Below are positions 1,334-59,912 of a stretch of 64,000 nucleotides of DNA, in pieces. The notes below the pieces were generated by a model, which saw only the letters and a list, made by a program, of their open reading frames with translations, had not been told where the DNA came from and made no database searches. The DNA comes from Escherichia coli (lineage in GTDB: Bacteria > Pseudomonadota > Gammaproteobacteria > Enterobacterales > Enterobacteriaceae), in assembly GCA_029351405.1 (NCBI GenBank), contig GCA_029351405.1_4841.1; one strand, given 5' to 3'. The translations under genes were made by a program, and so were the position numbers. The number at the start of each line of letters is the position of its first letter. The first letter of the stretch is position 1.

Positions 1334-1504
1334 TATTGAGGGGCGATAGTTTAATGGATAGCTGTCCGGACAGTGAATCCTCATAGAGAACGGCTGGGTG
1401 GCCAAACCCAGCAGGTGAGGTGAAAAGCCTCAGACCCCGCCAATACAGTTTGTTGTAAAATAAATGTTTGTTCAATAAACTTTATATGGTATAGTGATTT
1501 GCAA

Positions 1505-1580: not shown

Positions 1581-1837
1581 GACAATGGGTGTGAACGAAA
1601 GTGAATAGGCATAAAGTACGCGACCGACAAGCTCCAAGCCTCTGTCCAATAGCCGAACGGAATCCGAAGACGACGATAGTAGCACTCACCAAATTCAGAG
1701 TGTAGAGGCTACAGTAGTGCGCACCTCACGGGTTGCTACACCGGACACTCTGATACAAATCTACCGCTGCGTGGATTAGCTGAGGAAGGATGGCCGATGT
1801 CCTCGAGCGTGGCCCAGCACGCAGCGGCAGACCAAAT

Positions 1838-2477: not shown

Positions 2478-2600
2478 TCCCTGTCTTATTATCTTCTTAT
2501 CGACCCAAGCATGTCCTCCTTTATCGTAGTTTGTTCAATGATACAAAGGGGGTTTAAAATTTAACCGTTAACCCCCTATCATAGATTTGAGGATATACTA

Positions 2601-3314: not shown

Positions 3315-4508
3315 ATGAACAAAACCATCTTCGATACCCTTTCCCTCGACCGCAACCTGGTCCATTGGGAAGATTATCTCTACAAGCACACCCCGTGCGA
3401 ACTTGTCGTCAACCCCGAAACCAACCAGCAGGTCTGGTTCAAGCGTGAAGATTATTTTGCGCCGCTGTCCAATTACGCGGATGGCCAACAGGGTATCAAC
3501 GGCAGCAAACTCCGCCAGGCCATCTGGCTGATGGTTGAGCACCTCAAGGCCGGAGGCTCCCCTGATATCATTCATGGTACTGTTGTTGGTAGCCCGCAGT
3601 CCCCTATGGCGACAGCAGTCTCTCGGCACTTCGGCGGCAAGACAACCACTGTGCTCGGAGCGACCAAACCCACCACCTGTATGAACCACGACATGGTGGC
3701 AATGTCAGCCTGGTTTGGTAGTGAGTTCAACTTCGTCGGCTCGGGTTACAACAGCACCATCCAGCCGCGCTGTAAGAAACTCATCGAGCAGGTGAACCCA
3801 AAGGCGTACTATCTGGAATATGGTATCACCCTCGACCATACAGTGCATTCTCCTGAGCGCATCGCTGGCTTCCATATGCTGGGTGGCGAGCAGGTTGCCA
3901 ACATTCCTGATCACATTACTGACCTGATCATCCCAGCCGGATCGTGCAACTCTTGCACAAGCATCCTGACCGGGCTGGCAATGCATCCGAAGCCTAATCT
4001 GAAGCGTGTGTATCTGATCGGCATCGGTCCTAACCGCCTTGACTTTATCGAGAGCCGTCTGCGCATCATCGGCAAACATGCCAATCTGCCGCACATTGTC
4101 GACTTCACCCGTCGCTATCACGACAACCCAGACTATGTACACGGCAAGAAGGAGCTTCAGCATGCCTCTAAGAGCGTTTCGCTGGCTGGCCTCCTAAGTG
4201 GTATCAGGCAGAAGGAAGAGCCAGAGGTCGTGCTTCCTCGCTTTGAGGTACACCATTGGGATCTTCATACCACTAATTGGGTTCGTTACAATGACCTGAT
4301 GGAATATCAGTGGGGTGATATTGAGTTGCATCCTCGCTATGAAGGCAAGGTCATGACCTGGGTTCAGCAGAACAAGCCAGAGCTGCTCAATGAGAACACT
4401 CTGTTCTGGATTGTGGGTAGCAAGCCGTACATTGAGCCAATGAAGGCAGCATGCCCTGAGCTGGCTATCCCTGAAACAGTTCCTGTAAACGATTTCACCC
4501 CTTCCTGA
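3315..4508 (+). CDS. PLP-dependent enzyme, fold-type II (ACC deaminase / D-cysteine desulfhydrase / cysteine synthase-like)
   Basis: 397 aa; KREDY...NGSKLRQAIWLM resembles the KRDD...GGNKxRKLE lysine-Schiff-base region of the ACC-deaminase/DcyD family; GGAG RBS upstream. Confidence 0.6.
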   Translation: MNKTIFDTLSLDRNLVHWEDYLYKHTPCELVVNPETNQQVWFKREDYFAPLSNYADGQQGINGSKLRQAIWLMVEHLKAGGSPDIIHGTVVGSPQSPMATAVSRHFGGKTTTVLGATKPTTCMNHDMVAMSAWFGSEFNFVGSGYNSTIQPRCKKLIEQVNPKAYYLEYGITLDHTVHSPERIAGFHMLGGEQVANIPDHITDLIIPAGSCNSCTSILTGLAMHPKPNLKRVYLIGIGPNRLDFIESRLRIIGKHANLPHIVDFTRRYHDNPDYVHGKKELQHASKSVSLAGLLSGIRQKEEPEVVLPRFEVHHWDLHTTNWVRYNDLMEYQWGDIELHPRYEGKVMTWVQQNKPELLNENTLFWIVGSKPYIEPMKAACPELAIPETVPVNDFTPS

Positions 4509-5149: not shown

Positions 5150-5707
5150 TTAAAGGTGGGAATCCAGCCAGGCGTTCTTTTCGTTCTGCCACTCCCAAGC
5201 GGCCTGGCCGCCAGCCATGATCACTTCCAGGGAAGGAGTATTGTCATCCTCGCCGCCGTGAAGGTCAGGGTCGAAGCCGTCATCTTCAGGATCGTCTTCG
5301 CATTCATTCTGATAAGCGGAATATTCGATGTAATGGGCTTCAGCATCGCAATCCATGTCACCCAGAGCAGCCTCAAGAGTCATTTTACCTTCAGCGATCA
5401 GTTCGGCAGTCGCGTCGTCCAGGCCTGCGTCTTTCGCTTCAACGAACAGTTCGTGGCGTTTCTGGAAAAGGAAGAAGTTCATGGCTTCAATGCGCGAGTC
5501 GAAGTACTCTTTGCGGGGAATCATGATTTCACGACCATCGACTTTGCTTACCATCAGCAGGCATGAACCGTATTCAACCAGGTAGCGACCGCCTTTCACT
5601 GGGTTGGAACCGTCAATTGTGCCCAGAGTGGTGATTGCGCGGCCTTCTTCAGTACCGTACATTACAGTTTTGCCAGATTTGGATTGAGCGATAATTTCGA
5701 TTGCCAT
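5150..5707 (-). CDS. hypothetical protein with acidic C-terminal half (186 aa from internal Met)
   Basis: Start moved to MAIEII (CAT at 5705-5707) with AGGA RBS; the track ORF extends to 5794 through a low-complexity N-terminus. Confidence 0.55.
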   Translation of the reverse strand: MAIEIIAQSKSGKTVMYGTEEGRAITTLGTIDGSNPVKGGRYLVEYGSCLLMVSKVDGREIMIPRKEYFDSRIEAMNFFLFQKRHELFVEAKDAGLDDATAELIAEGKMTLEAALGDMDCDAEAHYIEYSAYQNECEDDPEDDGFDPDLHGGEDDNTPSLEVIMAGGQAAWEWQNEKNAWLDSHL

Positions 5708-5802
5708 GATGTATTTCCTTCTCTTCAGATTGTTGTTTGTTCGTACTACAATTAGAAGTATACGCCAGTTATTGAAGAAGTAAACTTTATTCAATAAATA
5801 TT

Positions 5803-6015
5803 TTAATAAATTTTGAACTCTGCTCCCCTGTACGTCGCCGTCCCTCGTTCTATGAGGCCGTCAGGGACAATTACCTTTGTTGGCCAACCACCATCTGGAG
5901 CCTTAATAGTCAGGCGCGTCTTATGATCACCCAGCTGTGTTTGTTCATAGATCCTTCCGCGTACTATCGTCGCCCCGCCCTGGGTGACAAGCAATCTCTT
6001 GTTTACCACATTCAT
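5803..6015 (-). CDS. hypothetical small protein (70 aa)
   Basis: ORF in the same orientation as its neighbours, bounded by terminator-like hairpins. Confidence 0.4.
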   Translation of the reverse strand: MNVVNKRLLVTQGGATIVRGRIYEQTQLGDHKTRLTIKAPDGGWPTKVIVPDGLIERGTATYRGAEFKIY

Positions 6016-9709: not shown

Positions 9710-9762
9710 TTCAATAAACCAAAGGGGGATATAATTCCCCCTGTTAACCCTTTGACAAACAG

Positions 9763-10113: not shown

Positions 10114-10889
10114 ACAACCTGGTTTGTATCTATGATATGAAATCAAAGGTCGGTGGTCTGTATCGCGTCCTCGTGGATGTTGACCTGACGTTGGTCGACA
10201 GCCTCTCCCCTTGGGTGCAGTGGTTCAACGAAGAGAACATCGCCGCCGCTGCTATCGCTACGGGGGACCATAAGTCATACCAGTTCCAGCCGATTACCAA
10301 AGAGTGTTATATGTCCCATGCTGGCGACCTGGCTATTCTGATGCGTGAACGTGCGCATCCGGCGTGGCTATACCATGAAGTCCAATTGGGGATGCACAAA
10401 CAACGTGTGCCAAGCGGTAACGATCCTATGGATTGGTGGCGTCGCCCTGACTTGTACGCCAAGATGAACCCGCTCCCCGGTGCTTACGAGTTCCTGGTAA
10501 ATCTGAAGGATATCTTGCTTGAAGATTTCGACAATGTTGAATTCATCGCGGTGTCGAAGTGCGAGCCGGAACACGAGCGCAGCAAGCGTCAGTTTGTCTA
10601 TGATAAGTTCCCTGGTATCTTCAACGGGTTTGTCAGCACCGACGAAAAGCATCTGCTGGCTGGCGATGTCCTGATTGATGACAATCCGAAGTATGTTGAG
10701 CCGTGTGGTCTGAACAACATCTTTGTCATCTTTGTTCCTCAGGGCAATTATGAAAAACTGGATCTTTCGAACTCGGAAGATATGCTTTATATTAAACCAG
10801 TAGAAGGCCAGAACCACTTCGACTTCCTGAATCACAATATTATTGAAGTGGTCAATCGCCTGATTAGTCATTATCAATACGTCCGATAG
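10110..10889 (+). CDS. HAD-superfamily hydrolase, 5'(3')-deoxyribonucleotidase-like
   Basis: 259 aa; N-terminal VLVDVDLTLVD matches the HAD DxDxT phosphatase motif; ATGA overlap with the upstream stop. Confidence 0.55.
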   Translation: MNNLVCIYDMKSKVGGLYRVLVDVDLTLVDSLSPWVQWFNEENIAAAAIATGDHKSYQFQPITKECYMSHAGDLAILMRERAHPAWLYHEVQLGMHKQRVPSGNDPMDWWRRPDLYAKMNPLPGAYEFLVNLKDILLEDFDNVEFIAVSKCEPEHERSKRQFVYDKFPGIFNGFVSTDEKHLLAGDVLIDDNPKYVEPCGLNNIFVIFVPQGNYEKLDLSNSEDMLYIKPVEGQNHFDFLNHNIIEVVNRLISHYQYVR

Positions 10890-10898
10890 GAGGACATC

Positions 10899-11204
10899 GT
10901 GCAAGATCAGAATAAGTTCGGGGAAATCCCCGACAAGCGTTCCGGTGATAGCGACATGGATGGCGTGATTAACCATGTGAACAACTTCATTCGCCAGCAG
11001 GAGACTCCGACTCCTATCGGCGCAGCCAAGGCTCTTCATGATGTACTGGTGAAGATCGGCCAGCGCTCTGAAGCGGATGAAATCTTCTATAACTTCGACG
11101 ACCAGTATAAAGTTAAGTTTGAAGAAAACGGTCGTCCGCATGTTGCTGTGTTCTGGGCACCTTGGCTGGGCGGCGTGAGCTGGCGTATTGAGGATGCTGT
11201 GTAA
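10899..11204 (+). CDS. hypothetical protein (101 aa)
   Basis: GTG start preceded by TAGGAGGA RBS. Confidence 0.45.
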   Translation: MQDQNKFGEIPDKRSGDSDMDGVINHVNNFIRQQETPTPIGAAKALHDVLVKIGQRSEADEIFYNFDDQYKVKFEENGRPHVAVFWAPWLGGVSWRIEDAV

Positions 11205-12121
11205 TGGCTAAAATAATTGTAGTGAAGGGAACAAGTGGCGTGGGCAAGGGTACGAGAGTGGTCCAGTTCATCGAATGGCTCCGTACGAAGCTGGAGCCTA
11301 CCGAACTGACCTACACCGTTGGTGACAAGACTCGCCCGTTTGGCCTGAAGTTCGGAGAGCTGAAGTTAATCTTCGTTGGACAGTACACCGTGTCTAACAA
11401 ATCCGGCCTGGCTTCCTGGACTTCAATGGATGCAATCCATGCTGCTACAGGCTCAGGCGATATTGCTCGTGATCTAATCAAGTGCTGGTTGGTTCAGGGA
11501 TACACTCTGGTGTGCGAGGGTGAACCCCTCATGCTGTCGGACAAATGGCGTCCTGAATGGATGTTCAAGAACTATCCGATTGAATCATTGGCGCTGCTGT
11601 ACTTTGCGTACCCCGACCGCTATCAGTACGATGCTCGTATCCGTGGTCGCTCTGGTAAAGAAGCAGGGAACTCCGGCTGGTCGCGCAACGAATCTTACTC
11701 CAAGGAGTTTGAGAAGTCGAAGGCCGAAATGCTGGCGCTGGGCTTCACTGTGGCTGTTGATGATTACAGCGGACAGGATATCCTGTATAAATCACCGAAT
11801 GCCAACACCCAGGAGTTCCTGACCAGCCAGCAGTCAGAGTTGGCGGTACTACCGTTCGACGCCCCGCTTTGGGTGGTGGGTAACGCGATTTGCCATCAGA
11901 TACGGTCCGAACTGCGTGAAGTTAACATGGACACCAAAGACTTTTACGCCTACTGTGAAACCAATCCGATGACCCGTGAGGTCGGCGGTGATGATCCTTT
12001 GGCGCACAGAGTGCCTGAGAAGCCGCAGAAGGCATCCAAAACTAAAACCAAGGCGAGCGCCCAGCCAGAAGTAACGAAGGCAGCGTCGCGCTCTCTCCTT
12101 GACCTGATGAAGAAGGGGTGA
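11204..12121 (+). CDS. P-loop kinase-like protein (candidate nucleotide or DNA-base kinase)
   Basis: 305 aa; N-terminal IVVKGTSGVGKGT glycine-rich P-loop; distinct from the dNMP kinase at 52608-53177. Confidence 0.5.
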   Translation: MAKIIVVKGTSGVGKGTRVVQFIEWLRTKLEPTELTYTVGDKTRPFGLKFGELKLIFVGQYTVSNKSGLASWTSMDAIHAATGSGDIARDLIKCWLVQGYTLVCEGEPLMLSDKWRPEWMFKNYPIESLALLYFAYPDRYQYDARIRGRSGKEAGNSGWSRNESYSKEFEKSKAEMLALGFTVAVDDYSGQDILYKSPNANTQEFLTSQQSELAVLPFDAPLWVVGNAICHQIRSELREVNMDTKDFYAYCETNPMTREVGGDDPLAHRVPEKPQKASKTKTKASAQPEVTKAASRSLLDLMKKG

Positions 12122-12321: not shown

Positions 12322-12677
12322 AAATTCAAATCCCTCGCGATGCTGTAGCTGTTGCGATTGACTACACCGGAAACGCCAAGCACATTACTGCCGTGCGCCT
12401 GATTCCTGAAAAGAACTGCGTCATCCCTCAGTTCCAGCTGAATGCCAATCCGTCGTCCAAAGACTTCGGCAAGTGGTTACAGGCTGCTCCGTTCCGTACC
12501 CAGACGAATGCTCAGATGTTCATCTCGGGTAAGACCCACACTGCAGCCCGTCTGTGGTTCGTGACCGCTGACCGTCGCTTTGTTGATATGTGGGAACGTC
12601 CGATGGGGTTCGTGAAGCCGGAAGATATTCAGCTGGCTCCTGAAGAGGAAGCGAAAGATGAAAATCAAGTCGGTTGA
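12318..12677 (+). CDS. hypothetical protein (119 aa)
   Basis: Start set at MKIQIP (ATG 12318) overlapping the upstream TGA; the track ORF starts earlier at 12183 inside the upstream gene. Confidence 0.45.
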   Translation: MKIQIPRDAVAVAIDYTGNAKHITAVRLIPEKNCVIPQFQLNANPSSKDFGKWLQAAPFRTQTNAQMFISGKTHTAARLWFVTADRRFVDMWERPMGFVKPEDIQLAPEEEAKDENQVG

Positions 12678-12843
12678 TTTTATCTTCATGATGCTGATGT
12701 TCGTTATCTTCACGGTATCGCTCGTCGGCGCCATGGTCACAGAAGGGGTTCCACAACGTCCCTTCCTGGTGATTTGTCCTGTATCGATCGCCACTTTCTT
12801 CTATCTGGCGTTCCGTGTTGAATTGGGGAACAAACTCGAATGA
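12658..12843 (+). CDS. small membrane protein (61 aa)
   Basis: Hydrophobic FIFMMLMFVIFTVSLVGAMV; translationally coupled to its neighbours. Confidence 0.4.
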   Translation: MKIKSVDFIFMMLMFVIFTVSLVGAMVTEGVPQRPFLVICPVSIATFFYLAFRVELGNKLE

Positions 12844-14075
12844 CACATCTATCTAAAATGCCGACGGGCTATACGCCCCCGGCTGAATGGAAGTACCCGA
12901 TTGACCTATCTGTTGACTACCGTAAACCTGAGAATCGCATGTACCTGCTCAAGGCTTGGGTGGAGGCGCTGTCCTACACAGAAGAGCACAACCAGCAGAT
13001 GCGTCTGATGGACTATGCGATTGAAGTCACTGAAGGCATCAGCCTCGAACAGAAAGTCGAGCGCAAGATCTGGATGGCATTCCTGTGGGGTTGTTGCTAT
13101 AACGCTGTCGGACCGTGGACGATCTACAGTGAGTTCCCTATGCCACCCCAGTCCAAAGAAGAGATGCAGCGCTTCTCTGATTGGTATAATCTGAACTTTG
13201 AACGCATGCGATTCGATACCGACTGTCGCTACCGCAAGTCCAAGATGATTCCGTGTGTTCAGTCCTATATTGACTGGCTGGCTGGCCGTACTCAATATGA
13301 CGCTTTCCGTGGGATGTTGGTGTGCATCGATAAGACAGAACAATTCACCCAGCTGTGGGACACGGCGATGTCCTGGAAATACTTCGGTCGCCTGAGCGCC
13401 TGGAACTTCCTGGAAGCCCTGAACATGGTCTTCGGGAACGAATACACCATTGACGTCCCTGGCTTCATGCTGCGTGATCGTGATGGAAGCGAGTCCAACC
13501 GTAATGGCGCGGCGTTCTTGTCCAACCGTGACGATTGGGTGACTAAACACGGGAAGAAAAAGATCAACGGTTGCCCTATCACGGATGAAGAGTGTGACAT
13601 CCTTGAGGCCGACCTTGAGCAGGCGTTCCAGGATTGTGTGGCTGAGTTCGGACACCTGACGTTCATCAACCGTCTGAACTTTGAAACCTCCGGTGCTTGT
13701 TGGCTGAAGAAATTCTTCCGACTGAAGAATACCCGTTATATCGGGTGGGACGCAGAGCGTACCTGGGATGAGATAGACTACATGGAACGCGTCTGGCCTG
13801 AATACTCCTGCGCAGCGCTCTGGGAAGCCCGTTCTCTCTGGCTACCAGATACCCTGTTGTGCGAAAAGGCTCCTGCAGGGCACGTTCCAGGCGTCCAGAA
13901 GTGGAAGATGCCTGTGTTCTTTGAGACTGGTGTTCCTCTGCATATCTGGCACCTGCAAAAGGGTACGCGCTGGGAACCATCCGAGGTCTGTACGAACCTG
14001 AAGATGCCTGTGCGCAAGGTTGAGGACAAGTCGAAGTCCAGCAGCGTCAACCTCATGGCACTCTTGAAACGCTGA
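12840..14075 (+). CDS. hypothetical protein (411 aa), candidate DNA-modification enzyme
   Basis: Long ORF overlapping the upstream stop; no catalytic motif recognised by eye; sits downstream of the P-loop kinase. Confidence 0.55.
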   Translation: MTHLSKMPTGYTPPAEWKYPIDLSVDYRKPENRMYLLKAWVEALSYTEEHNQQMRLMDYAIEVTEGISLEQKVERKIWMAFLWGCCYNAVGPWTIYSEFPMPPQSKEEMQRFSDWYNLNFERMRFDTDCRYRKSKMIPCVQSYIDWLAGRTQYDAFRGMLVCIDKTEQFTQLWDTAMSWKYFGRLSAWNFLEALNMVFGNEYTIDVPGFMLRDRDGSESNRNGAAFLSNRDDWVTKHGKKKINGCPITDEECDILEADLEQAFQDCVAEFGHLTFINRLNFETSGACWLKKFFRLKNTRYIGWDAERTWDEIDYMERVWPEYSCAALWEARSLWLPDTLLCEKAPAGHVPGVQKWKMPVFFETGVPLHIWHLQKGTRWEPSEVCTNLKMPVRKVEDKSKSSSVNLMALLKR

Positions 14076-14279: not shown

Positions 14280-14306
14280 TCTGACTGGGGTTGCTTCCTT
14301 CAATAA

Positions 14307-14346
14307 AGGGGAATGGGTTATTATTAGCCCGTTCCCCTTTCTTTTT
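14307..14346 (+). terminator. Rho-independent terminator
   Basis: Hairpin GGGGAA(T)GGG-(TTATTATTAG)-CCC(G)TTCCCC followed by TTTCTTTTT; TTCAATAAA motif immediately upstream. Confidence 0.6.
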
Positions 14347-17129: not shown

Positions 17130-17144
17130 TCGTTCTTCAATAAA

Positions 17145-17178
17145 AGGGGATAGGGTATCATTGCTCTATCCCCTTTTT
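17145..17178 (+). terminator. Rho-independent terminator
   Basis: Hairpin GGGGATAG-(12 nt)-CTATCCCC followed by TTTTT; TTCAATAAA motif immediately upstream. Confidence 0.65.
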
Positions 17179-17241
17179 CGTGGACAGGAACATGACAGAC
17201 AAGCCAAGAAAGATGAAGAACAAACGCCGGAGCAAACGCTG

Positions 17242-17697
17242 ATGACTACCAAACCAACTTATGAAGAACTGGCGCAGACCGTTCTGACCTTCGACAGCAC
17301 CCTGAAGAATCTTTACAAGGTGCTAGGAAATAACCCGACTTCAGAGTCAGGAGAAACAGTTAATCTTCTGTTACTGATGAACCCTCTGTGGGATATTGAT
17401 GCCATTGTTACTGCCCTGAAAGATCCTGGGGCAAAGGAGCCGGAGCCAACCCCTGTATCCACTGGGATTCAGAATTATCTGGAGAACTTTGATGAGTACT
17501 CCTTCACCAATCTGCTCCTGCGTGATATGATCAACACAGAACGCCGTCGCCAGGGAAAGAACTACCCTGTGGTCCAGTCTGATGAAGAAATCGAGCAGAG
17601 TGTTCGAGAAGATCTGAACAGCACCTACTCGCCGATCGATCTGGCTGTGATGATTGTTCAGGCACTGTCCTACGCCGCCAAAGGAGAAACGAAATGA
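17242..17697 (+). CDS. hypothetical protein (151 aa)
   Basis: Start set at MTTKPT (ATG 17242, GGAG RBS); the track ORF start at 17161 lies inside the terminator hairpin. Confidence 0.45.
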   Translation: MTTKPTYEELAQTVLTFDSTLKNLYKVLGNNPTSESGETVNLLLLMNPLWDIDAIVTALKDPGAKEPEPTPVSTGIQNYLENFDEYSFTNLLLRDMINTERRRQGKNYPVVQSDEEIEQSVREDLNSTYSPIDLAVMIVQALSYAAKGETK

Positions 17698-18394: not shown

Positions 18395-18418
18395 AAGCCC
18401 TCAGCCGAGGGCTTTTTC
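18395..18418 (+). terminator. Rho-independent terminator
   Basis: Hairpin AGCCCTC-(AGCC)-GAGGGCT followed by TTTTT. Confidence 0.7.
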
Positions 18419-18492
18419 AATTGAAGACACCCACCGTATTATACCCACTCAACCAATATGTTCCCCTTTGACATTGATAGGATTTCTATACT

Positions 18493-24943: not shown

Positions 24944-24974
24944 GCCATGAACGCGATGATCATGGGTTAACAAA

Positions 24975-25061: not shown

Positions 25062-25562
25062 ATGAAATCCATGGTCAAACGTAAAGTCGAAATCTCCCTG
25101 ACTGCCCATATTGAAATGGTCCAACAACTTATCCTGGATGCGTATGAAATCCAGAAAGATCGCCAATCGAGGGGAGGTGTGACGGACCCCACCTGTCCTG
25201 GAAACATACTGTACTATCGCATGCTGCGCCAGACTGGGCACACCGCCGCGCTGAAGAAGATTCTGTCCTATGATTTCCAGACAGAGAACAACCTCAACAT
25301 CATGGGTGTCTTCCATAGCGTTAGTGAACGCGATTCTTTCTTCCGCTCCCGAGCAGGTGCGGATGTATCATTGCCCGATGTAGACAAGAAACAGCACACG
25401 ACAACCATCTCCCATTACATGGGCACGGGCATCGATAAAGCAAACATCATCGTGTTCTCTGATACGTTGCATGACCCCAAGCGCCTTGCATCTGCGCATG
25501 AAATGCTGCGGGAAGGTCGCAGCGCCCTCACTAATTTGACTTTAGTAGTGTTTCTGGGCTAG
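25062..25562 (+). CDS. hypothetical protein (166 aa)
   Basis: GAGGAT RBS; first gene after the terminator/promoter pair. Confidence 0.5.
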   Translation: MKSMVKRKVEISLTAHIEMVQQLILDAYEIQKDRQSRGGVTDPTCPGNILYYRMLRQTGHTAALKKILSYDFQTENNLNIMGVFHSVSERDSFFRSRAGADVSLPDVDKKQHTTTISHYMGTGIDKANIIVFSDTLHDPKRLASAHEMLREGRSALTNLTLVVFLG

Positions 25563-26967: not shown

Positions 26968-28878
26968 ATGTCCAACAAAATTGATATTGAACGCAAGTAC
27001 AAGAAGCTCACTCACGTTGAGCATATCCTACTCCGCCCAGAGCGTCATCTGGGCAGTATTCGTTCGTCTGTGGGGACGGTGTGGGTGTATGACCCAACTA
27101 AGGACAAAGTCATCTTCCGTGACAACTTTGAGTACTCCCCCGCGCTGATCAAACAGTTTGATGAAATCATCACCAACTGTGTTGACCACAGCAAGACCCC
27201 TGAGGGCAAATCCCTGACGGAAATCACCGTCACAGTTTCCCCGATGAACGGTCAAATCATCGTTGCCGACAACGGGGGTATCCCTGTGGTCAAGCATGGC
27301 GTCACCAACGAGTGGCTTCCTGAAATGTTGTTCGGCTCTCTATATGCGGGATCGAACTTCAACGACGAAGACGAAGAGTACAACAACCAGAAGTCCGGTG
27401 GTCAGAATGGCGAAGGGGCGTCCCTCGTCAACGTGTTCTCCAAATGGTTCCGCGTCACGACTAATGACGGCAAGAAGTCTTATACTCAGACGTTTGAAGA
27501 CAACATGAGCAAGAAATCTAACCCAGTCATCAGCAACGTGAACAGTCCTGGCACATCCATCGCCTGGATCCCTGACTATGCTCGTCTGGGCGTCAAAGGA
27601 CTTGATCAGAACAACCTGCTGATGATCTATCGCCGCGCGTTTGAAGTGGCTGCGTGTAACCCGCGCCTGAAGATTGTTCTCAACGGGAAGCAAATCCGGA
27701 TTGACCGCTTTGGTCACTTCGTTGATTACTTCCATGCTGGTTCGGCTGTTGACGAAACCGGGGATTGGTCTGTTGCTGTAGCTCCTTCATCCGGTACGTT
27801 CATGCACGCATCATACGTGAACTCTATTGCCACCCACATCGGTGGTCCTCACGTTGATTATGTTGCCGACCAGATCGTGGCAGCGATTCGTCCCCAGCTG
27901 GTGAAGAAGTTCAAGACCGAACTGAAGCCAGCAATGATCAAGAACCACATGTCCTTGTTCATCGCTGCCGACATCAACAACCCGCGCTTTGACAGCCAGA
28001 CCAAGGAGCGCATGACCACTCCTGTCAGCCAGTTCGGTACGTCGTACAAGCCCAGCGATAAACTGATCCGCAAGGCGCTTGAGTTCGTTACGGCTGGTCT
28101 GAGCAAAGAACTGGCTTCCCTGCGCAATGAGCAGGATGATGCTGAGTTTGAAAAGGCCAAGAAGGATATCAGTAAACGGGATTATCGTGAGATTGAGAAG
28201 TATTACCCGGCGACCGCCCGTGGTGACCGCAGCGGATGCTCCCTGTTGCTGACAGAGGGTGATAGTGCCTCCAATCCTATCCTGAACGCCCGCGACACCA
28301 AGAAGATCGGGTTGTTCCCGCTTCGTGGTAAGTTCATCAACTGCCTGAACGCCCCGCGCTCAAAGGTGATGAACAATGAAGAGTTCAAGAACCTGTGTAC
28401 GATCCACGGCGGTGCAGTACCAGGCCAGCCCCTTGACATCACCCGTTACCCACAGACTGTTGTGGCTACCGATGCGGACGATGACGGCATCCACATCCGT
28501 GGGTTGTTGATCACCCTGTATTGCACCTACTGGCCGGAGTACGTCCGTCAGGGCAGGCTGAAGCTCCTGCGCACCCCTTACATGCGTGTGTGGTGTGGTA
28601 AGGTGATGCATGAGTTCATGAACAACGCAGAGTATGAGGAGTTCCTGAAGACGCCTGATGCCAAGAAGATCACGAAGAAGAAATATCTGAAAGGTCTTGG
28701 CGGTAACAGCACTGAAGACTTCAAACGTATTCTAAACAACCTGGATGCGTATACTACGACGGTCACGCTGGACGATGGCTATCAACAGTCACTGAAGAAT
28801 GGCTTCGGTGACGAGGCCGCCGATTACCGCAAAACCTGGTTTAGCGATGTTTGCCTATTTGAAACTGAGGATGAATAA
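26968..28878 (+). CDS. 39: DNA topoisomerase II large subunit (GyrB-like, T4 gp39-like)
   Basis: 636 aa; N-terminal ATPase region and PRFDSQTKERM matching T4 gp39 MRFDSQTKERL. Confidence 0.9.
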   Translation: MSNKIDIERKYKKLTHVEHILLRPERHLGSIRSSVGTVWVYDPTKDKVIFRDNFEYSPALIKQFDEIITNCVDHSKTPEGKSLTEITVTVSPMNGQIIVADNGGIPVVKHGVTNEWLPEMLFGSLYAGSNFNDEDEEYNNQKSGGQNGEGASLVNVFSKWFRVTTNDGKKSYTQTFEDNMSKKSNPVISNVNSPGTSIAWIPDYARLGVKGLDQNNLLMIYRRAFEVAACNPRLKIVLNGKQIRIDRFGHFVDYFHAGSAVDETGDWSVAVAPSSGTFMHASYVNSIATHIGGPHVDYVADQIVAAIRPQLVKKFKTELKPAMIKNHMSLFIAADINNPRFDSQTKERMTTPVSQFGTSYKPSDKLIRKALEFVTAGLSKELASLRNEQDDAEFEKAKKDISKRDYREIEKYYPATARGDRSGCSLLLTEGDSASNPILNARDTKKIGLFPLRGKFINCLNAPRSKVMNNEEFKNLCTIHGGAVPGQPLDITRYPQTVVATDADDDGIHIRGLLITLYCTYWPEYVRQGRLKLLRTPYMRVWCGKVMHEFMNNAEYEEFLKTPDAKKITKKKYLKGLGGNSTEDFKRILNNLDAYTTTVTLDDGYQQSLKNGFGDEAADYRKTWFSDVCLFETEDE

Positions 28879-28879
28879 G

Positions 28880-30211
28880 ATGGTTGCCAAGAGCATTACT
28901 GTAACGGACTTTGTCAACACTGACCATAAGCAGTTTTCTGTGGTCAACAGCATCCGTCAAATCCCTCAGCTGATTGACAGCCTCAAGCCAAGCCAGCGCA
29001 AGATCCTTTTCGCTGCTCTTGAGTACAACAAGGAGGAGATTGTTGACCGCCTTGGTATGTTCGCCGCCGCTCGCACCAACTACAAGTCTGGTGGTGAGAA
29101 CATGAGCGGCACTATCGTGAACATGGCTCAGGGGTTCCCAGGCACGAACAACATCCCGTACTTTGACCGCGATGGCCAGTTTGGTTCTATCATGGGGCGT
29201 GATGCTTCATCTGCCCGATACATATCCGTCGCTGTATCTGACGTTATCCGCAAGATCTTCCGCAAGGAGGATGAGGGTATCTTGGAATACAACTACCTTG
29301 GTGAAGAAAGGCTGGAGCCGAAGTTCTTTCTGCCCATCCTACCCATGTTCCTGGTGAATGGGATCAATGGTATCGGCACCGGATATTCCACCGACACCCC
29401 GTGTCATTGCGTTAAGTCCGTGCTGAATGCCCTGAGAGCGCTTCTCCGTGGCGAAGACCCGAAAGACTTAAAACCGTACTGGAACGGCTTCAAAGGAGAG
29501 ACAGGCTATACTGAGGAAGGAAGAGCATACAGTCGTGGTATCTTCCGTCGCGTCAATGCCACGACCCTGCATATCACCGAAGTCCCAGTGGGCTGGTTTG
29601 CCAAAACCTATGAGACCAAGGTGTTGCTGCCTCTGTACAAGGCAGGTATCCTCACCGAGTACGCCAACGACACGACGGAAGATGGCTGGGATATCACGGT
29701 TGTGTTTAAGCGCGGCGAACTCTCTAAGCTGAGTGACGAGCAGGTTGAGCAGATGTTCAAGTTGTATTCAGCCACCAAGCCTGTTTGGACAGCATGGGAT
29801 GAAGACGGTGTTATTCATCGTTATTCTGGTTGGCGGGATATGTTGCTGCCGTTCTTCAATTATCGCCTGTCACGGTACGAAGACCGTCGCCAGTATCTGT
29901 TGAAGGACATGGCAGACAGGATCCGCAAGCTGGGTGACCGGGCGGTGTTCATTGAATGGGCGACGCGTGTTGATCTCCGCCAAAAGATTGACGTGCTGAA
30001 GTCTCTGTTCATGCAGGACTACCCGGACTTTGGTGGTGATCTTGACGAGTTGTTCAAGATGCCTCTGTCGTCTATTACTCTGGACGCCCGTGAGCGCCTA
30101 CTCAAGCAGATTGAGAACCTTGAAGTACAACATAAGGAATTAAGTAAGAAAGAGGACATCGATCTTTACACTGAAGACCTTGATGACCTTGAAAAGGCTC
30201 TTGGCCTTTAA
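28880..30211 (+). CDS. 52: DNA topoisomerase II medium subunit (GyrA-like, T4 gp52-like)
   Basis: 443 aa from ATG 28880 just after the gp39-like stop; N-terminus LKPSQRKILFAALE...GENMSGTIVNM typical of the breakage-reunion subunit. Confidence 0.85.
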   Translation: MVAKSITVTDFVNTDHKQFSVVNSIRQIPQLIDSLKPSQRKILFAALEYNKEEIVDRLGMFAAARTNYKSGGENMSGTIVNMAQGFPGTNNIPYFDRDGQFGSIMGRDASSARYISVAVSDVIRKIFRKEDEGILEYNYLGEERLEPKFFLPILPMFLVNGINGIGTGYSTDTPCHCVKSVLNALRALLRGEDPKDLKPYWNGFKGETGYTEEGRAYSRGIFRRVNATTLHITEVPVGWFAKTYETKVLLPLYKAGILTEYANDTTEDGWDITVVFKRGELSKLSDEQVEQMFKLYSATKPVWTAWDEDGVIHRYSGWRDMLLPFFNYRLSRYEDRRQYLLKDMADRIRKLGDRAVFIEWATRVDLRQKIDVLKSLFMQDYPDFGGDLDELFKMPLSSITLDARERLLKQIENLEVQHKELSKKEDIDLYTEDLDDLEKALGL

Positions 30212-30856: not shown

Positions 30857-31267
30857 ATGAAATTACTGGGATATTTTCGTGAACTCCCAACGGGAACTGA
30901 AGGCAAGTTGTTCTCACAGGTGAAGGGGGATGACATCGGTGATACGATGATTCCCCTGTACACTCGTGAACTTCCTGCCGAAGGTGCCTGGGAGCGCCGT
31001 GTGGTCGCTGCCGCCAACAAATATGGTGATGTAATCGTCGTTGCCGACCGTCACCACAGCCGATTCATGAACAGCCAGCTCAAGATCCTGAAAGAAGCAG
31101 GCGTCATTAAATCCATCCATACCCGCGAACAGGGATTCATCGACAACCAGGGCAACTTCCTCACTCGTGAAGAGGCATGCATCGTAGCCCGTGAAGCTGG
31201 ACAGATCAATCAGGTGCGCCTGAAGACAACCCCTTTCCGCGAACTCTTTTCCGAAGACCTCTATTGA
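30857..31267 (+). CDS. hypothetical protein (136 aa)
   Basis: ORF heading the operon that contains the macro-domain and DexA genes. Confidence 0.5.
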   Translation: MKLLGYFRELPTGTEGKLFSQVKGDDIGDTMIPLYTRELPAEGAWERRVVAAANKYGDVIVVADRHHSRFMNSQLKILKEAGVIKSIHTREQGFIDNQGNFLTREEACIVAREAGQINQVRLKTTPFRELFSEDLY

Positions 31268-31317
31268 AGAAAAAGGCGGTATTATTACCGCCTCGACCTC
31301 TTGTTTGGTAACATCAA

Positions 31318-32156: not shown

Positions 32157-32789
32157 ATGTACAAGTCTAATTTCCTTGCAGTTGCCGACAGCGAAACCCT
32201 GGGTCGCTGGGATGATGCAGTCATGTTGTCCTGGGCGCACACCATCGCCGACCTGACCAAGCGTTATACTCTTCAGCAGCTGGTTGAGGAGCGCACGACG
32301 TTCATTAAGCTGAATGTCAAAGAGCAACTCGAACTTGGTCGCGTGAAGGACGCTGGGACAGTTGAATGGTGGCTGGGCACGGGCAAGCGCAACCCGTGTG
32401 ATGCGGCTCGCGCCGTCAGTCTGTACCCGACTGAGCAGGACATCTCTATCTTCCAGCTGGCCGATGAAATCCGCAAGGGATGTCATCGTCTTGGGGTAGA
32501 CCCGCGCTCGGTTGACTGGTGTGACCGTAACTTGTTCGATCTACGCAAGGCTCAACACATCATTGAGGTGACGTGTAAGCAGGACTCCAACGAGCCATGG
32601 GATTACCACCACACCTTCGACATCGTGAGCTGGCTGAAGGGTGTTGGGCAACAGGATCGCTACGCTGGCATCAAGGCGTGGGAACTGGAAGGTATGGTCT
32701 ATCATGATCCTCGTTATGACGCCGCGCTTGATTGGCTTCGTATTCAGAAGACCATGGAAGATCTGATGGGACTGGAGGTTGTGGGATGA
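32157..32789 (+). CDS. dexA: DexA-like 3'-5' exonuclease (DEDD family)
   Basis: 210 aa; FLAVADSETLG parallels T4 DexA FIIDFETMG (Exo I DxE); TVEWW and a C-terminal HxxxD-like motif. Confidence 0.7.
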   Translation: MYKSNFLAVADSETLGRWDDAVMLSWAHTIADLTKRYTLQQLVEERTTFIKLNVKEQLELGRVKDAGTVEWWLGTGKRNPCDAARAVSLYPTEQDISIFQLADEIRKGCHRLGVDPRSVDWCDRNLFDLRKAQHIIEVTCKQDSNEPWDYHHTFDIVSWLKGVGQQDRYAGIKAWELEGMVYHDPRYDAALDWLRIQKTMEDLMGLEVVG

Positions 32790-33088: not shown

Positions 33089-33100
33089 GGGGCTTTTCTA
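33079..33100 (+). terminator. Rho-independent terminator
   Basis: Hairpin AGCCCC-(GTGA)-GGGGCT followed by TTTT, overlapping the stop at 33088. Confidence 0.65.
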
Positions 33101-33151
33101 TATCCGGGATAGAGTATCATTGGTTCACCAACGAATCCTCTGGAAACTGTT

Positions 33152-35588: not shown

Positions 35589-35658
35589 ATAAAGATTCAG
35601 CGGTTATTGAAGAAGGGGGAGTATATACTTCCCCTTAGTTTATTAAGAGGAACCGGAA

Positions 35659-45443: not shown

Positions 45444-45556
45444 GTGGTGTCTCCAGGGTTATATGTGCTGCTATTATAACCCTGGGGACTTCAATAGATT
45501 ATTGGCGGGTGTGGGATTTTGCCTGGCCGATAATGAGGTTAGTGTGTAATCTTCAG

Positions 45557-45898: not shown

Positions 45899-46130
45899 GG
45901 TCTGTTCCTTCTGTAAGTTCCCATGTATTATATGGGTGAATAGTTTATTGAATTATTTGTTGTGGAAACCCAGAGCCTTGTGGACTTCTTCGCGATTTAA
46001 TTTCGGCCTGAGACTCTGTGCGATTAATCCGGCGCTCGCCATTCCATTTCAACATCGATCGCATCTATCAGACAACGGATCTCAGCGCATCAGGGGCTTA
46101 CCCAACAGCCAGTTGAAATACTCGCGCATG

Positions 46131-47882: not shown

Positions 47883-47930
47883 TACAGATTAAATATTAGG
47901 CGATTATTTCTTGAAAGTAAAGTTATTGAA

Positions 47931-47958: not shown

Positions 47959-47976
47959 TCTTGGTGTTCTATTGAC

Positions 47977-48642: not shown

Positions 48643-48706
48643 GATGTGCTCCTGGTTTACATTCAGATCATAGAATTATACCCTATGACCCGCTTTATTG
48701 AATTGC

Positions 48707-54891: not shown

Positions 54892-54920
54892 TAAACAAAA
54901 GGAGCTGCTATTATAGCAGC
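54890..54920 (-). terminator. Intrinsic terminator (minus strand)
   Basis: Hairpin GCTGCTA-(TTA)-TAGCAGC with T-run TTTTGTTTATT on the minus strand after the 54955-55776 stop. Confidence 0.55.
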
Positions 54921-54954
54921 CCCTTCATCTATTGAACAGTTTCTGAACTTAAAT

Positions 54955-55776: not shown

Positions 55777-55965
55777 AATAAAAACCCTTTCGTTATTAAG
55801 ACCGTATCCGCGGCATATTGTTGTTCTGACTGTGTAGTGAGAACATAATATACTGCATTTTCATAGATGTAAACTACTTTTTATTGAAAAGAAAGTTAAC
55901 ACCTTAGTGTTATAAGGTGCGCGACCAAGCGGAGCGCGAACTTGCGTGAATATTAACTTTCTACG

Positions 55966-57011: not shown

Positions 57012-57073
57012 GTTATAGCCTCATCATTTAGGATTACCTGTTCACGAATTATCCCTCGGAACGGGTTATAGAA

Positions 57074-59813: not shown

Positions 59814-59912
59814 TTCTTAATTTCCTCTGTTTCCGCCCCTCAGGGCTATTCTGTTACATGTATTTTCAGTTTGCTACAAAGCGGGGTAATTATACCCCGA
59901 TCTTACATTGAA

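What the first reader, a model, noticed from the sequence alone, without database searches (positions are those of the whole stretch)
5766..5798. Recurrent intergenic 8-mer TTCAATAA/TTATTGAA beside terminator hairpins
TTCAATAA(A) occurs on the plus strand near 1481, 5790, 9710, 14299 and 17137 within the plus-strand block. Its complement TTATTGAA occurs near 45945, 47923, 48695 and 55879 in the minus-strand block, so it is mostly co-oriented with transcription. It usually lies right next to a GGGG...CCCC hairpin and 40-110 nt upstream of the next start codon. At 5769-5797 two copies form an inverted pair (TTATTGAA-N13-TTCAATAA). GTTATTGAAG recurs at 5768, 35603 and 47922. This conservation is more than an A-tract for bidirectional termination needs; it may be a phage promoter or UP element, a protein-binding site or an RNA processing site.
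Basis: seen in the sequence. Interest (0 to 1): 0.45.

Follow-up and report, generated by a model that had tools for sequence, protein, structure and literature searches.

The report
Conserved promoter box in ViI-like phages
The recurring 8-base motif TTCAATAA is most likely the upstream half of a promoter signal shared by a whole family of T4-related phages (Ackermannviridae). It usually sits 12 bases before a TATAAT-like -10 that lies in the loop of a terminator-like hairpin, which offers a candidate for the early/middle promoters that earlier genome papers said they could not find.

Summary
TTCAATAA occurs 18 times in the window against about 2 expected. Eleven copies lie in the 10.6% of the window that is intergenic, against 0.48 expected after correcting for intergenic composition. 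The window is an Agtrevirus (Ackermannviridae), about 97% identical to Escherichia phage AV101.

The motif is not part of the terminators. It has a partner: a (T/G)ATAAT-like -10 hexamer at a fixed distance (N12, range 11-14), about 45-59 nt before the next start codon. That -10 usually sits in the loop of a GC-rich hairpin whose stem changes between phage genera while staying paired. The box, spacing, -10 and hairpin are conserved in phages of Escherichia, Salmonella, Klebsiella, Dickeya, Serratia and Erwinia. In three other promoters the box lies inside or just upstream of T4-early-type promoters (TTTACW-N16/17-TAYWAT), including the inverted pair at 5769-5797.

Best reading: composite promoter/terminator cassettes, analogous to the PeSL/PmSL elements of T4-type phages. 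They carry a family-specific -30 box in the position T4 uses for its MotA box, yet no MotA or AsiA homologue is detectable. No transcript mapping exists, so promoter activity and the box-binding factor are inferred. I rate it a new variant of a known kind, of moderate interest.

The parts
5769..5776 (-). Box TTCAATAA inside the spacer of a T4-early-type promoter: -35 TTTACT 5779-5784, -10 TATACT 5757-5762, for gene 5150-5707
   Evidence: (TTTACT-16-TATACT). The whole ~110-nt region is nearly invariant across three genera, and the elements are kept in the most distant locus L026.
5786..5798 (-). Palindrome TTTATTGAATAAA holding the second, inverted box copy (TTCAATAA on + at 5790-5797), at about -47..-40 of the same promoter in an AT-rich UP-like tract
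   Evidence: The same inverted pair with the same 13-nt gap occurs at AV101 72752/72773 and is conserved in L026.
1471..1495 (+). Box 1471-1478, N11, -10 TATAGT 1490-1495 (TGG just upstream), 10 nt before tRNA-Asn (1505)
2534..2577 (+). Box variant TTCAATGA 2534-2541, N13, TAAAAT 2555-2560 in the loop of hairpin 2547-2577, upstream of gene 2601
   Evidence: (loop conserved across genera)
9710..9742 (+). Box 9710-9717 (starts right after the DNA polymerase stop), N12, -10 TATAAT 9730-9735 as the loop of hairpin 9723-9742, upstream of gene 9772
   Evidence: (z = -2.85). AG3 'Porf237'.
14299..14340 (+). Box 14299-14306, N12, -10 TATTAT 14319-14324 at the apex of terminator-like hairpin 14305-14340 followed by a T-run, upstream of gene 14362
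   Evidence: top-scoring terminator; z = -5.6
17136..17177 (+). Box 17136-17143, N12, -10 TATCAT 17156-17161 at the apex of hairpin 17142-17177 followed by a T-run
   Evidence: (z = -5.0)
18416..18442 (+). Degenerate box TTCAATTG 18416-18423, N13, TATTAT 18437-18442, after a terminator and upstream of rIIA (18493)
   Evidence: 2 mismatches; weaker call
33096..33120 (+). Degenerate box TTCTATAT 33096-33103, N11, TATCAT 33115-33120
   Evidence: (orthologue L056 TTCTATAA-N11-TATCAT)
31261..31292 (+). Inverted box CTATTGAA 31261-31268, N11, TATTAT 31280-31285 in the loop of hairpin 31275-31292, upstream of gene 31318
35604..35634 (+). Inverted box TTATTGAA 35604-35611, N12, TATACT 35624-35629 in the loop of hairpin 35615-35634, 29 nt before ATG 35659
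   Evidence: (kept as TATTGAA-N11-TATACT with a different stem in relatives at 52-55% identity)
45456..45497 (-). Inverted box CTATTGAA 45490-45497, N11, TATAAT 45473-45478 within hairpin 45456-45482, upstream of DNA ligase (start 45443)
45920..45952 (-). Box 45945-45952 (right after a TAA stop), N12, -10 TATAAT 45927-45932 in the loop of weak hairpin 45920-45936, upstream of gene 45557-45898
   Evidence: (z = -1.4)
47893..47930 (-). Box 47923-47930 one base upstream of -35 TTTACT 47916-47921; second box-like TTCAAGAA 47908-47915 in the spacer; -10 TAATAT 47893-47898. A terminator lies just upstream (47937-47959).
   Evidence: (Kuttervirus: CTTTAC-TTCAATAA-N10-TATCAT; Serratia phages: box-N12-TATTAT)
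48665..48702 (-). Box 48695-48702, N14, -10 TATAAT 48675-48680 in hairpin 48665-48691, upstream of gene 48307-48642
   Evidence: 96.9% paired, 3 compensatory pairs; z = -4.7
54898..54936 (-). Box variant TTCAATAG 54929-54936, N13, TGC-TATAAT 54910-54915 at the apex of terminator-like hairpin 54898-54926, upstream of gene 54220-54879 (thymidylate synthase operon)
   Evidence: AG3 'Porf067'; Serratia phages: TTCTATAA-N12-TATAAT with stem GGCCGC/GCGGCC; z = -4.5
55845..55888 (-). Box 55881-55888, 7 nt upstream of -35 TTTACA 55868-55873; N17; -10 TATTAT 55845-55850
   Evidence: AG3 'Porf069'.
57037..57073 (-). Box variant TTCTATAA 57066-57073, N12, GATAAT 57048-57053 in the loop of hairpin 57037-57065, upstream of gene 56262-57011
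   Evidence: (98.4% paired, C-G to G-C swap)
59882..59912 (-). Degenerate box TTCAATGT 59905-59912, N10, TATAAT 59889-59894 in the loop of CGGGG/CCCCG hairpin 59882-59899, upstream of the ssDNA-binding protein gene (start 59813)
   Evidence: 2 mismatches; weaker call

Best explanation
TTCAATAA is the upstream (about -32 to -25) recognition box of a promoter class specific to Ackermannviridae. The class reads box, N12 (range 11-14), (T/G)ATAAT, then about 25-35 nt with a Shine-Dalgarno site, then ATG. It is presumably transcribed by host RNA polymerase with sigma-70, before the gp55-dependent late phase. In most copies the GC-rich spacer and the bases after the -10 form a hairpin with the -10 in its loop. 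One ~50-60 nt intergenic cassette can therefore do two jobs. It can stop or attenuate transcripts arriving from the upstream gene, because the full hairpin is in that RNA, often followed by a U-run. It can also start new transcripts inside or after the 3' arm, so the new RNA lacks the hairpin and is not terminated. These sites have no sigma-70 -35 hexamer at 17 bp, and the box sits where T4 places its MotA box. I therefore infer that the box replaces the -35 element and is read by an accessory factor, most likely a phage protein unrelated in sequence to MotA. The same box inside or beside T4-early-type promoters, including the inverted pair around the -35 at 5769-5797, would let that factor modulate those promoters too. 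What is shown: enrichment, spacing, orientation, distance to starts, cross-genus conservation and hairpin covariation. What is inferred: promoter activity, terminator activity, timing class, and the existence and nature of the factor.
For: Enrichment that survives composition correction. A sharp spacing peak: in AV101, 18 of 58 intergenic boxes (<=1 mismatch) have a good -10 at N11-14 (11 at N12), against about 1.6 expected, and 196 coding copies show no peak. The composite pattern gives 9 hits in the window against 0.89 expected. About 23 intergenic sites in AV101 have box-to-ATG distances clustered at 45-59 nt, and no intergenic site lies in the structural module at 119-153 kb. 18 of 22 copies are co-oriented with the downstream gene. 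Footprint-like conservation: in orthologue alignments the box, GG+TATAAT and the SD are invariant while the spacer varies. The unit is kept downstream of the DNA polymerase stop in Agtrevirus, Limestonevirus, Kuttervirus, Taipeivirus (phage May), Serratia phages 3M/phiMAM1 and Erwinia phage Bue1. Spacing stays 11-14 although the stems differ: GGGGGA/TCCCCC, GGGGGC/GCCCCC, GTGGGG/CCCCAC, GTGAGGC/GCCTCAC. Hairpins are supported by compensatory changes and by stability (z from -2.9 to -5.6 for most). A cross-genus profile of 55 sites shows no conserved -35 at N17 and G enrichment at -16..-13. A generic sigma-70 scan is not clearly above its shuffles and misses most of these sites. The AG3 authors independently listed three box-containing sites as putative early promoters. 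Experimental precedent: PeSL cassettes of RB49/phi1, with the same anatomy, act as promoters and terminators in lacZ fusions (PMC2839356). PmSLs of nt-1 combine a Mot box, a -10 and a stem-loop (PMC4122927).
Against: I found no transcript 5'-end data or reporter assay for any Ackermannviridae phage, so promoter activity is inferred. Box position is not unique: N6, N9-10, about N24 and about N30 occur in promoters that have their own TTTAC(W) -35, and a few sites carry the box inverted at the same distance (4 of 58 against about 0.8 expected). That is odd for an element read directionally like a -35 or a MotA box. No MotA or AsiA homologue is detectable and no candidate box-binding protein was found. 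Several hairpins lack a U-run (9710, 45945, 48695, 57066), so terminator function is uncertain there. A flank-shuffle control for 'the hairpin encloses the -10' was only modestly exceeded (44 of 55 against 35.3). Covariation rests on few independent lineages.
Confidence: 0.78

Rival explanations
1. The modules are promoters, but the box is read by host sigma-70 holoenzyme alone, as an unconventional upstream or spacer element that helps -10-dominated promoters. No phage factor is involved, and these are simply early promoters.
For: The box is identical in phages of six host genera whose RNA polymerases are highly conserved. G is frequent at -14 (32 of 55), and two window sites have a true TGn extended -10 (1471, 54929). 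The box also occurs within sigma-70/T4-early-like promoters. No MotA/AsiA or other activator was found. RB49 PeSLs work with host polymerase alone.
Against: No -35-like hexamer lies at 16-18 bp, and TTCAAT would be 14 bp from the -10, outside the range sigma-70 normally uses (established knowledge of sigma-70 promoters). Most sites lack TGn. An 8-bp element this strongly conserved at -30 has no known sigma-70 or alpha contact.
Confidence: 0.25
2. The box is mainly an operator for a phage or host DNA-binding regulator, for example a repressor that shuts off early promoters, rather than a recognition element needed for initiation.
For: Box position relative to the -10 varies (N6 to about N30) but always lies within the polymerase footprint. 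There is a conserved inverted pair 21 bp apart, centre to centre, bracketing the -35 at 5769-5797 and again at AV101 72752/72773, plus a palindromic version TTATT(G/C)AATAA. Inverted boxes occur at the same distance from the -10. The phage encodes HU-like and histone-family DNA-binding proteins.
Against: The sharp N12 peak and the absence of any alternative -35 at those sites suggest the box is needed for initiation there, not merely overlaid on a complete promoter. No regulator is identified.
Confidence: 0.15
3. The box belongs to the terminator or acts in RNA: an A-rich 5' flank for bidirectional termination, an RNase processing site, or a 3'-end stability signal next to the hairpin.
For: The 3' AAA(A) of the box pairs with the U-run in the hairpins at 14305-14340 and 17142-17177. 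At 54887/54929 box-like sequences flank the hairpin symmetrically. The box often follows the upstream stop codon directly.
Against: Boxes occur without any adjacent hairpin (1471, 5769, 55881) and downstream of complete terminators, where little RNA would contain them (47923, 18416). The TTC part is not explained by an A-tract. Spacing to the -10 stays constant while stem position and loop size vary from 4 to 15 nt. Terminators in the late structural module have no intergenic boxes.
Confidence: 0.05
4. The cassettes are kept mainly as recombination linkers for modular gene shuffling, as proposed for PeSLs, and the box is the conserved homology patch.
For: The anatomy matches PeSLs, for which recombination between cassettes was shown. 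At site 2534, homology between genera begins within about 10 nt upstream of the box while the upstream gene differs.
Against: The eight window-versus-AV101 breakpoints do not coincide with the modules. They look like discrete gene insertions (SegD-like gene, 33144-34047, 46345-46549). An 8-bp patch is too short to explain the fixed spacing to a -10.
Confidence: 0.05

Closest known systems
PeSL (promoter-early stem-loop) cassettes of T4-type phages RB49/phi1 (Arbiol et al. 2010, PMC2839356)
   Same: Intergenic cassette made of an upstream stop codon in AT-rich DNA, a promoter, a stem-loop often built on GGGG...CCCC and commonly overlapping the -10 or lying between -35 and -10, then SD and ATG. 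Present in many copies beside small genes of unknown function. Proposed to act as both terminator and promoter, and shown to do so for PeSLs.
   Different: RB49 PeSLs carry a near-perfect sigma-70 -35 (TTGACA) at N17. Here the upstream element is TTCAATAA at N12 with no -35. The phage family is different (Ackermannviridae, not Straboviridae). Recombination at the cassettes is not shown here.
PmSL (promoter-middle stem-loop) elements of Vibrio phage nt-1 and T4 MotA-dependent middle promoters (Comeau et al. 2014, PMC4122927)
   Same: An upstream box replaces the -35 and sits about 12 bp from a TATTAT/TATAAT-type -10 (box centred near -30), combined with a stem-loop. The N11-14 spacing found here matches the 12 +/- 1 bp reported for T4 Mot boxes (from my own knowledge of the T4 literature).
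   Different: The box sequence is TTCAATAA, not TGCTT. No MotA or AsiA homologue is found in this phage family. The box also occurs at other positions and occasionally inverted.
T4/PST-type early promoters, TTTACW-N17-TAYWAT (PMC4122927)
   Same: Three window promoters fit this consensus: TTTACT-N16-TATACT (5757-5784), TTTACT-N17-TAATAT (47893-47921) and TTTACA-N17-TATTAT (55845-55873). All have AT-rich upstream tracts.
   Different: They additionally carry the TTCAATAA box in the spacer or just upstream. T4 early promoters are not described as having it.
Hairpin promoters of coliphage N4 virion RNA polymerase (from my own knowledge)
   Same: A promoter signal embedded in a short DNA inverted repeat.
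   Different: N4 promoters are read by a phage single-subunit polymerase on an extruded hairpin with a 3-nt loop. Nothing here suggests such an enzyme. The loop here holds a sigma-70-type -10, and an upstream box is needed to describe the sites. This is a resemblance only and was not tested.

Membership tests
PeSL/PmSL composite promoter-terminator cassettes | Intergenic position between an upstream stop codon and the downstream SD/ATG, in many copies per genome | tested here: met
   About 15 sites in the window and about 23 in AV101. The box often abuts the stop codon, and box-to-ATG distance is 45-59 nt.
PeSL/PmSL composite promoter-terminator cassettes | A stable stem-loop, typically poly-G/poly-C, overlapping the promoter (between -35 and -10, or over the -10) | tested here: met
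   The -10 lies in the hairpin loop at 2534, 9710, 14299, 17136, 31261, 35604, 45945, 48695, 54929, 57066 and 59905. Supported by z-scores and compensatory pairs.
PeSL/PmSL composite promoter-terminator cassettes | A sigma-70-like -35/-10 pair (PeSL) or a TGCTT Mot box plus -10 (PmSL) | tested here: not met
   The -10 is present, but there is no -35 at N17 and no TGCTT. The upstream element is TTCAATAA.
PeSL/PmSL composite promoter-terminator cassettes | Demonstrated promoter and terminator activity | not testable with these tools
   No experimental data were found for Ackermannviridae.
PeSL/PmSL composite promoter-terminator cassettes | Association with insertion, deletion or replacement junctions (modular shuffling) | tested here: inconclusive
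   Window-versus-AV101 breakpoints are not at the modules. One cross-genus junction lies next to the box at 2534.
T4 MotA/AsiA-dependent middle promoters | Mot box (a/t)(a/t)(a/t)TGCTT(t/c)A centred at -30 | tested here: not met
   The box at that position is TTCAATAA.
T4 MotA/AsiA-dependent middle promoters | A sigma-70 -10 element 11-13 bp downstream of the box, with no -35 | tested here: met
   Spacing peak at N12.
T4 MotA/AsiA-dependent middle promoters | The phage encodes MotA and AsiA | tested here: not met
   tblastn and phmmer with T4 MotA and AsiA find no significant hit in AV101 or the window. Collection-wide hits appear restricted to T4-like phages: only 30 Salmonella records, against 166 Salmonella records that matched the window's DNA. 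Kutter et al. 2011 say the same. Structural analogues are not excluded.
Canonical sigma-70 promoter (TTGACA-N16-18-TATAAT) | Both hexamers at 16-18 bp spacing | tested here: not met
   This holds for the N12 class: a generic scan detects only 9706 (TTGATT-18-TATAAT) among them. It is met for the three TTTACW promoters at 5784, 47921 and 55873.
Intrinsic (rho-independent) terminator | GC-rich hairpin followed by a T-run | tested here: inconclusive
   Met at 14305-14340, 17142-17177 and 54898-54926. The T-run is absent or weak at 9723-9742, 45920-45936, 48665-48691 and 57037-57065.

The most novel reading that the evidence does not exclude
Ackermannviridae use a sigma-appropriation-like system that evolved independently of T4 MotA/AsiA. 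An unrecognised phage protein binds TTCAATAA at -30 to recruit host polymerase to promoters that lack a -35. The same protein represses or tunes the TTTACW early promoters that carry the box in or beside their spacer, for example through the inverted pair bracketing the -35 at 5769-5797. This would produce the early-to-middle switch that the 2011 genome papers could not explain. A further twist is that placing the -10 in the loop of an inverted repeat may assist promoter opening on supercoiled, thymidine-hypermodified DNA.
Probability: 0.3. Interest if true: 0.75.

Novelty: new variant of a known kind. Interest (0 to 1): 0.55.

Why it matters
The genome papers for ViI-like phages stated that their early and middle promoters could not be identified by informatics, and that these phages have no MotA, AsiA or other obvious way to time prereplicative transcription (PMC3184105). 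AG3 was assigned only eight or so sigma-70-like promoters (PMC3121705). A single, strongly conserved box-N12-(-10) signal would supply a concrete, testable promoter map of about 20-25 sites per genome. Many of these sites lie in front of replication and nucleotide-metabolism genes and tRNAs. The map points to a specific DNA sequence with which an unknown transcription factor could be fished out. It would also extend the composite promoter/terminator cassette design (PeSL/PmSL) from Straboviridae to a second family. Ackermannviridae are widely used as therapeutic and biocontrol phages (Salmonella, E. coli O157, Klebsiella, Dickeya, Erwinia), so a defined promoter/terminator module is also useful for engineering.

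Tried and rejected
1. Literature. Ten full-text searches found no description of TTCAATAA as a motif and no transcriptomic or TSS study of Ackermannviridae. The 'Viunalikevirus' genus paper is not held, and the library lacks most subscription journals, so prior description cannot be excluded.
2. Rfam found only the four tRNAs.
It says nothing about taxonomic spread.
4. Search for a cognate factor. T4 MotA and AsiA give no hits. Pfam on 125 AV101 proteins shows no MotA or AsiA family among the 25 of 69 families displayed, so weak hits could be hidden. Pfam and PHROGs on ten window proteins, including those behind the three strong early-type promoters, give only unknown-function families, a histone-family DNA-binding PHROG (25062-25562) and an FmdB-like zinc ribbon (60398-60643).
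5. The hairpin-enclosure control that shuffles flanks separately was weak (44 of 55 against 35.3), because it keeps the G-left/C-right composition that makes the hairpin. I rely instead on covariation and whole-sequence shuffles.
6. Alignment A3 (site 9710 across genera) could not be used for pair counting because the distant sequences are shifted by one register. The stems were read directly and folded individually.
7. The PeSL-style test for breakpoints at the cassettes was negative for window versus AV101.
8. By eye I considered host-factor sites (IHF, FNR, ArgR, H-NS-like TCGATAAATT). None fits convincingly and none was tested.
Full report
WHAT THE WINDOW IS. A 15-kb query matches Ackermannviridae phages, best Escherichia phage AV101 at about 97% identity (Aglimvirinae; its nearest relatives AG3, SKML-39, MK-13 and EspM4VN are Agtrevirus). 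The window holds four tRNA genes, DNA polymerase, rIIA/B, topoisomerase, ligase, primase-helicase, UvsX, thymidylate synthase, ssDNA-binding protein, gp33 and some baseplate genes. I transferred the AV101 annotation onto the window by BLASTP of ORFs. Intergenic DNA makes up 10.6% of the window.

CHECK OF THE OBSERVATION. TTCAATAA/TTATTGAA occurs 18 times, against 1.96 expected. The inverted pair at 5769-5797 and the three GTTATTGAAG copies are real. Eleven copies are intergenic. TTCAATAA and TCAATAAA are the top intergenic-enriched 8-mers. With shuffles confined to intergenic sequence, so that its lower GC is accounted for, 0.48 copies are expected in the window and 11 are seen; in complete AV101, 1.09 are expected and 22 seen. 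Coding copies (7 in the window, 10 in AV101) are close to background. Of the 22 intergenic copies in AV101, 18 point toward the downstream gene. None lies in the intergenic DNA of the late structural module at 119-153 kb.

THE MOTIF HAS A PARTNER. Reading the flanks shows TTCAATAA followed about 12 nt later by TATAAT, TATTAT or TATCAT. I measured the spacing from every intergenic box (<=1 mismatch) in AV101 to any good -10-like hexamer ((T/G)AnnnT, <=1 mismatch to TATAAT). Eighteen of 58 boxes have one at N11-14, eleven of them at exactly N12. The background rate is about 0.7% per position, which gives about 1.6 expected. The 196 coding copies show no peak. In the window the composite pattern with one mismatch allowed gives 9 hits against 0.89 expected. 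Listing the sites shows a second regularity: the distance from the box to the start codon is 45-59 nt at most sites. That leaves about 25-35 nt after the -10, enough for a short leader with a Shine-Dalgarno sequence. A non-redundant set of 55 such sites from six phage lineages has two conserved blocks (box and -10), G enrichment at -16..-13, and nothing conserved where a sigma-70 -35 would lie. Spacing is N12 in 31, N11 in 10, N13 in 6 and N14 in 8. A generic sigma-70 scan is not clearly above its shuffles (26 against 19.4 +/- 4.3, and 32 against 24.2 +/- 6.0) and misses most of these sites.

THE HAIRPINS. At 2534, 9710, 14299, 17136, 45945, 48695, 54929, 57066 and 59905 the -10 hexamer is the loop or apex of the hairpin, and the GC-rich arms occupy the spacer and the bases just after the -10. 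The same holds at the inverted-box sites 31261 and 35604. At 45490 the -10 overlaps the 5' arm of the hairpin. Two of the hairpins are the best-scoring terminators in their regions (14305-14340 and 54898-54926). Most are far more stable than shuffles (z from -2.9 to -5.6); 45945, 57066 and 2534 are weaker. Some have a clear T-run (14299, 17136, 54929) and others do not (9710, 45945, 48695, 57066).

CONSERVATION. I fetched 56 related loci from IMG/VR around DNA polymerase, primase-helicase and dCMP deaminase. BLAST of representative loci identifies Klebsiella phage May, Serratia phages 3M/phiMAM1 and Erwinia phage Bue1/phiEa2809. One contig has the exact length of Dickeya phage LIMEstone1 (152,427 bp). 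Downstream of the DNA polymerase stop codon almost every lineage has a box, 11-14 nt, and a -10-like hexamer in a hairpin loop; in L009 an inserted gene separates the polymerase from the module. The stems differ: GGGGGA/TCCCCC in most, GGGGGC/GCCCCC in the Serratia phages, GTGGGG/CCCCAC in the Erwinia phage, and GTGAGGC/GCCTCAC in a metagenomic relative. At 54929 the Serratia phages have TTCTATAA-N12-TATAAT with a GGCCGC/GCGGCC stem. Formal pair counts give 96.9% pairing with three compensatory pairs for site 48695, and 98.4% pairing with one C-G to G-C swap for 57066. Slid registers drop to 19-51% paired. In the alignments the invariant columns are the box, GG+TATAAT(T), part of the 3' arm and the SD, while the spacer varies. 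The box-to-(-10) distance holds even though the stem starts from 0 to 6 nt after the box and loops range from 4 to 15 nt. That points to a constraint at the DNA level (a promoter) rather than on an RNA structure.

OTHER GEOMETRIES, INCLUDING THE FINDING'S OWN COORDINATES. At 5708-5802 both flanking genes are on the minus strand. In that orientation the region reads as follows: an AT-rich tract containing the palindrome TTTATTGAATAAA (5786-5798, which is the plus-strand box), then GTTTACT (-35, 5779-5784), TC, TTCAATAA (5769-5776), 6 nt, TATACT (-10, 5757-5762), and about 50 nt later the ATG. This fits the T4/PST early-promoter consensus TTTACW-N17-TAYWAT. One box lies in the spacer and an inverted copy lies 21 bp upstream, so the two bracket the -35. 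The ~110-nt region is almost invariant across three genera, and its elements survive in the most distant locus. An equivalent pair occurs at AV101 72752/72773. At 47923 and 55881 the box lies 1 and 7 nt upstream of TTTACT/TTTACA -35 hexamers. In Kuttervirus the 47923 orthologue reads CTTTAC-TTCAATAA-N10-TATCAT, and in the Serratia phages box-N12-TATTAT. A minor class carries the box inverted at the same distance from a loop-embedded -10 (31261, 35604, 45490). In AV101 this is 4 of 58 against about 0.8 expected, and the 35604 case is partly conserved with a different stem.

WHAT IT MOST LIKELY IS. The simplest account of all this is a promoter class, box-N12-(-10), built into terminator-like hairpins. 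Transcripts arriving from upstream contain the full hairpin. Transcripts that start about 7 nt after the -10 begin in or beyond the 3' arm and so escape it. This anatomy is that of the PeSL cassettes of RB49/phi1: upstream stop codon in AT-rich DNA, promoter, GGGG...CCCC stem-loop often overlapping the -10, then SD and ATG. For PeSLs, promoter and terminator activity were shown with lacZ fusions (PMC2839356). It also resembles the PmSLs of nt-1, which combine a Mot box, a -10 and a stem-loop (PMC4122927). Neither paper covers ViI-like phages. The differences from those elements are the box sequence, the lack of a -35, and the absence of MotA and AsiA. T4 MotA and AsiA find nothing significant in AV101 or the window. 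Collection-wide they hit about 1,150 phage records each that appear to be T4-like only, with 30 Salmonella records against 166 Salmonella records that matched the window's DNA. [quoted passage not shown] The AG3 paper listed nine putative sigma-70 'early promoters'. Three of them contain the box (Porf237 is the orthologue of 9710 and Porf067 of 54929; the third is Porf138), but the shared motif was not noted. The AG3 GenBank record has no regulatory feature at the orthologue of 9710.

MECHANISM AND ITS LIMITS. Sigma-70 normally needs a -35 at 16-18 bp or a TGn extended -10. Most of these sites have neither, so I infer that the box substitutes for the -35 through an accessory factor, as the Mot box does in T4. 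The genes served fit a prereplicative programme: a tRNA, genes following DNA polymerase and primase-helicase, the thymidylate synthase operon, ligase, the ssDNA-binding protein gene and rIIA. These steps remain inferences. The variable box position in the TTTACW promoters, the palindromic or inverted copies, and the 21-bp pair around a -35 fit a DNA-binding regulator at least as well as a strictly positioned activator. I could not name a candidate protein. Sigma-70 acting alone remains possible. I put about 0.78 on 'promoter element in a composite promoter/terminator cassette'. Within that, I put roughly 0.45 on a phage-encoded box-binding activator, 0.25 on host holoenzyme alone and 0.15 on a mainly regulatory operator.

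NOVELTY. Within the searchable literature the motif and its architecture are undescribed for this family, but the kind of element is known (PeSL/PmSL, -30-box promoters). I therefore class it as a new variant of a known kind. It is moderately interesting because it turns an explicitly stated gap into a directly testable promoter map and gives a bait sequence for the missing factor.

Noticed in passing
window 57790-57797 (+); about 4620, 37731, 57030, 61540: A T4-type late promoter TATAAATA lies upstream of the baseplate hub gene (57832). A recurrent CTAAATA(G/C)CCC-like motif lies in intergenic DNA next to late or structural genes. The k-mers TAAATA (13 intergenic, 3 coding) and CCTAAA (7, 3) are strongly enriched. 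This is probably the gp55-type late promoter of the family, which the 2011 papers said was not yet defined.
   Followed up: no
window 9743-9750, 2566-2573, 24965-24972, 55905-55912 and others: GGTTAAC/GTTAACC-type words (containing the HpaI palindrome GTTAAC) are enriched in intergenic DNA: GGGTTAA 5 intergenic against 1 coding, GTTAAC 7 against 4. They often lie just after or within the hairpins. The function is unknown.
   Followed up: no
window 1581-1837, 1922-2141, 2231-2600: Long, rather GC-rich spacers between and after the tRNA genes have no annotated gene and no Rfam hit. The CBA120 paper mentions a 'degenerate tRNA' in the equivalent cluster. They could be decayed tRNAs or other small RNAs.
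   Followed up: no
window 33144-34047; 46345-46549; 12643-12846; AV101 3568-3959, 10588-11264, 28779-29220, 32500-32746: These are the indels that distinguish the window from AV101. The window has an extra ~900-nt segment with ORF 33361-34050 and a 204-nt insert. AV101 has a SegD-like gene and three other small genes that the window lacks. They look like homing-endonuclease-type insertions and do not coincide with the box/hairpin cassettes.
   Followed up: partly
window 5708-5815: The promoter region upstream of gene 5150-5707 (185 aa, PHROG of unknown function) is nearly invariant across Agtrevirus, Kuttervirus and Taipeivirus, although the protein it drives is only 80-87% identical over the N-terminal 70 aa compared. 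This suggests an unusually constrained, probably very strong or tightly regulated, early promoter.
   Followed up: partly
window 54887-54936: The cassette here is almost symmetric. TTCAATAG on the minus strand and TCCAATAA on the plus strand flank the palindromic hairpin, and each has a TATAAT/TATTAT at N13-14. Only the minus-strand side faces a gene. It may be a bidirectional terminator whose symmetry creates a mirror-image pseudo-promoter.
   Followed up: no
window 62413-62440 (+): A perfect sigma-70 consensus (TTGACA-N16-TATAAT, 12 of 12) lies inside the minus-strand gene 62052-62576 and points toward the plus-strand baseplate hub gene at 62626.
   Followed up: no
window 17199-17246: Between the 17136 cassette and gene 17242 there is a 15-codon ORF (MTDKPRKMKNKRRSKR) whose stop overlaps the next ATG. 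In several related phages the same residues form the C-terminus of a longer protein, so the cassette appears to have replaced the front of that gene in this lineage.
   Followed up: partly
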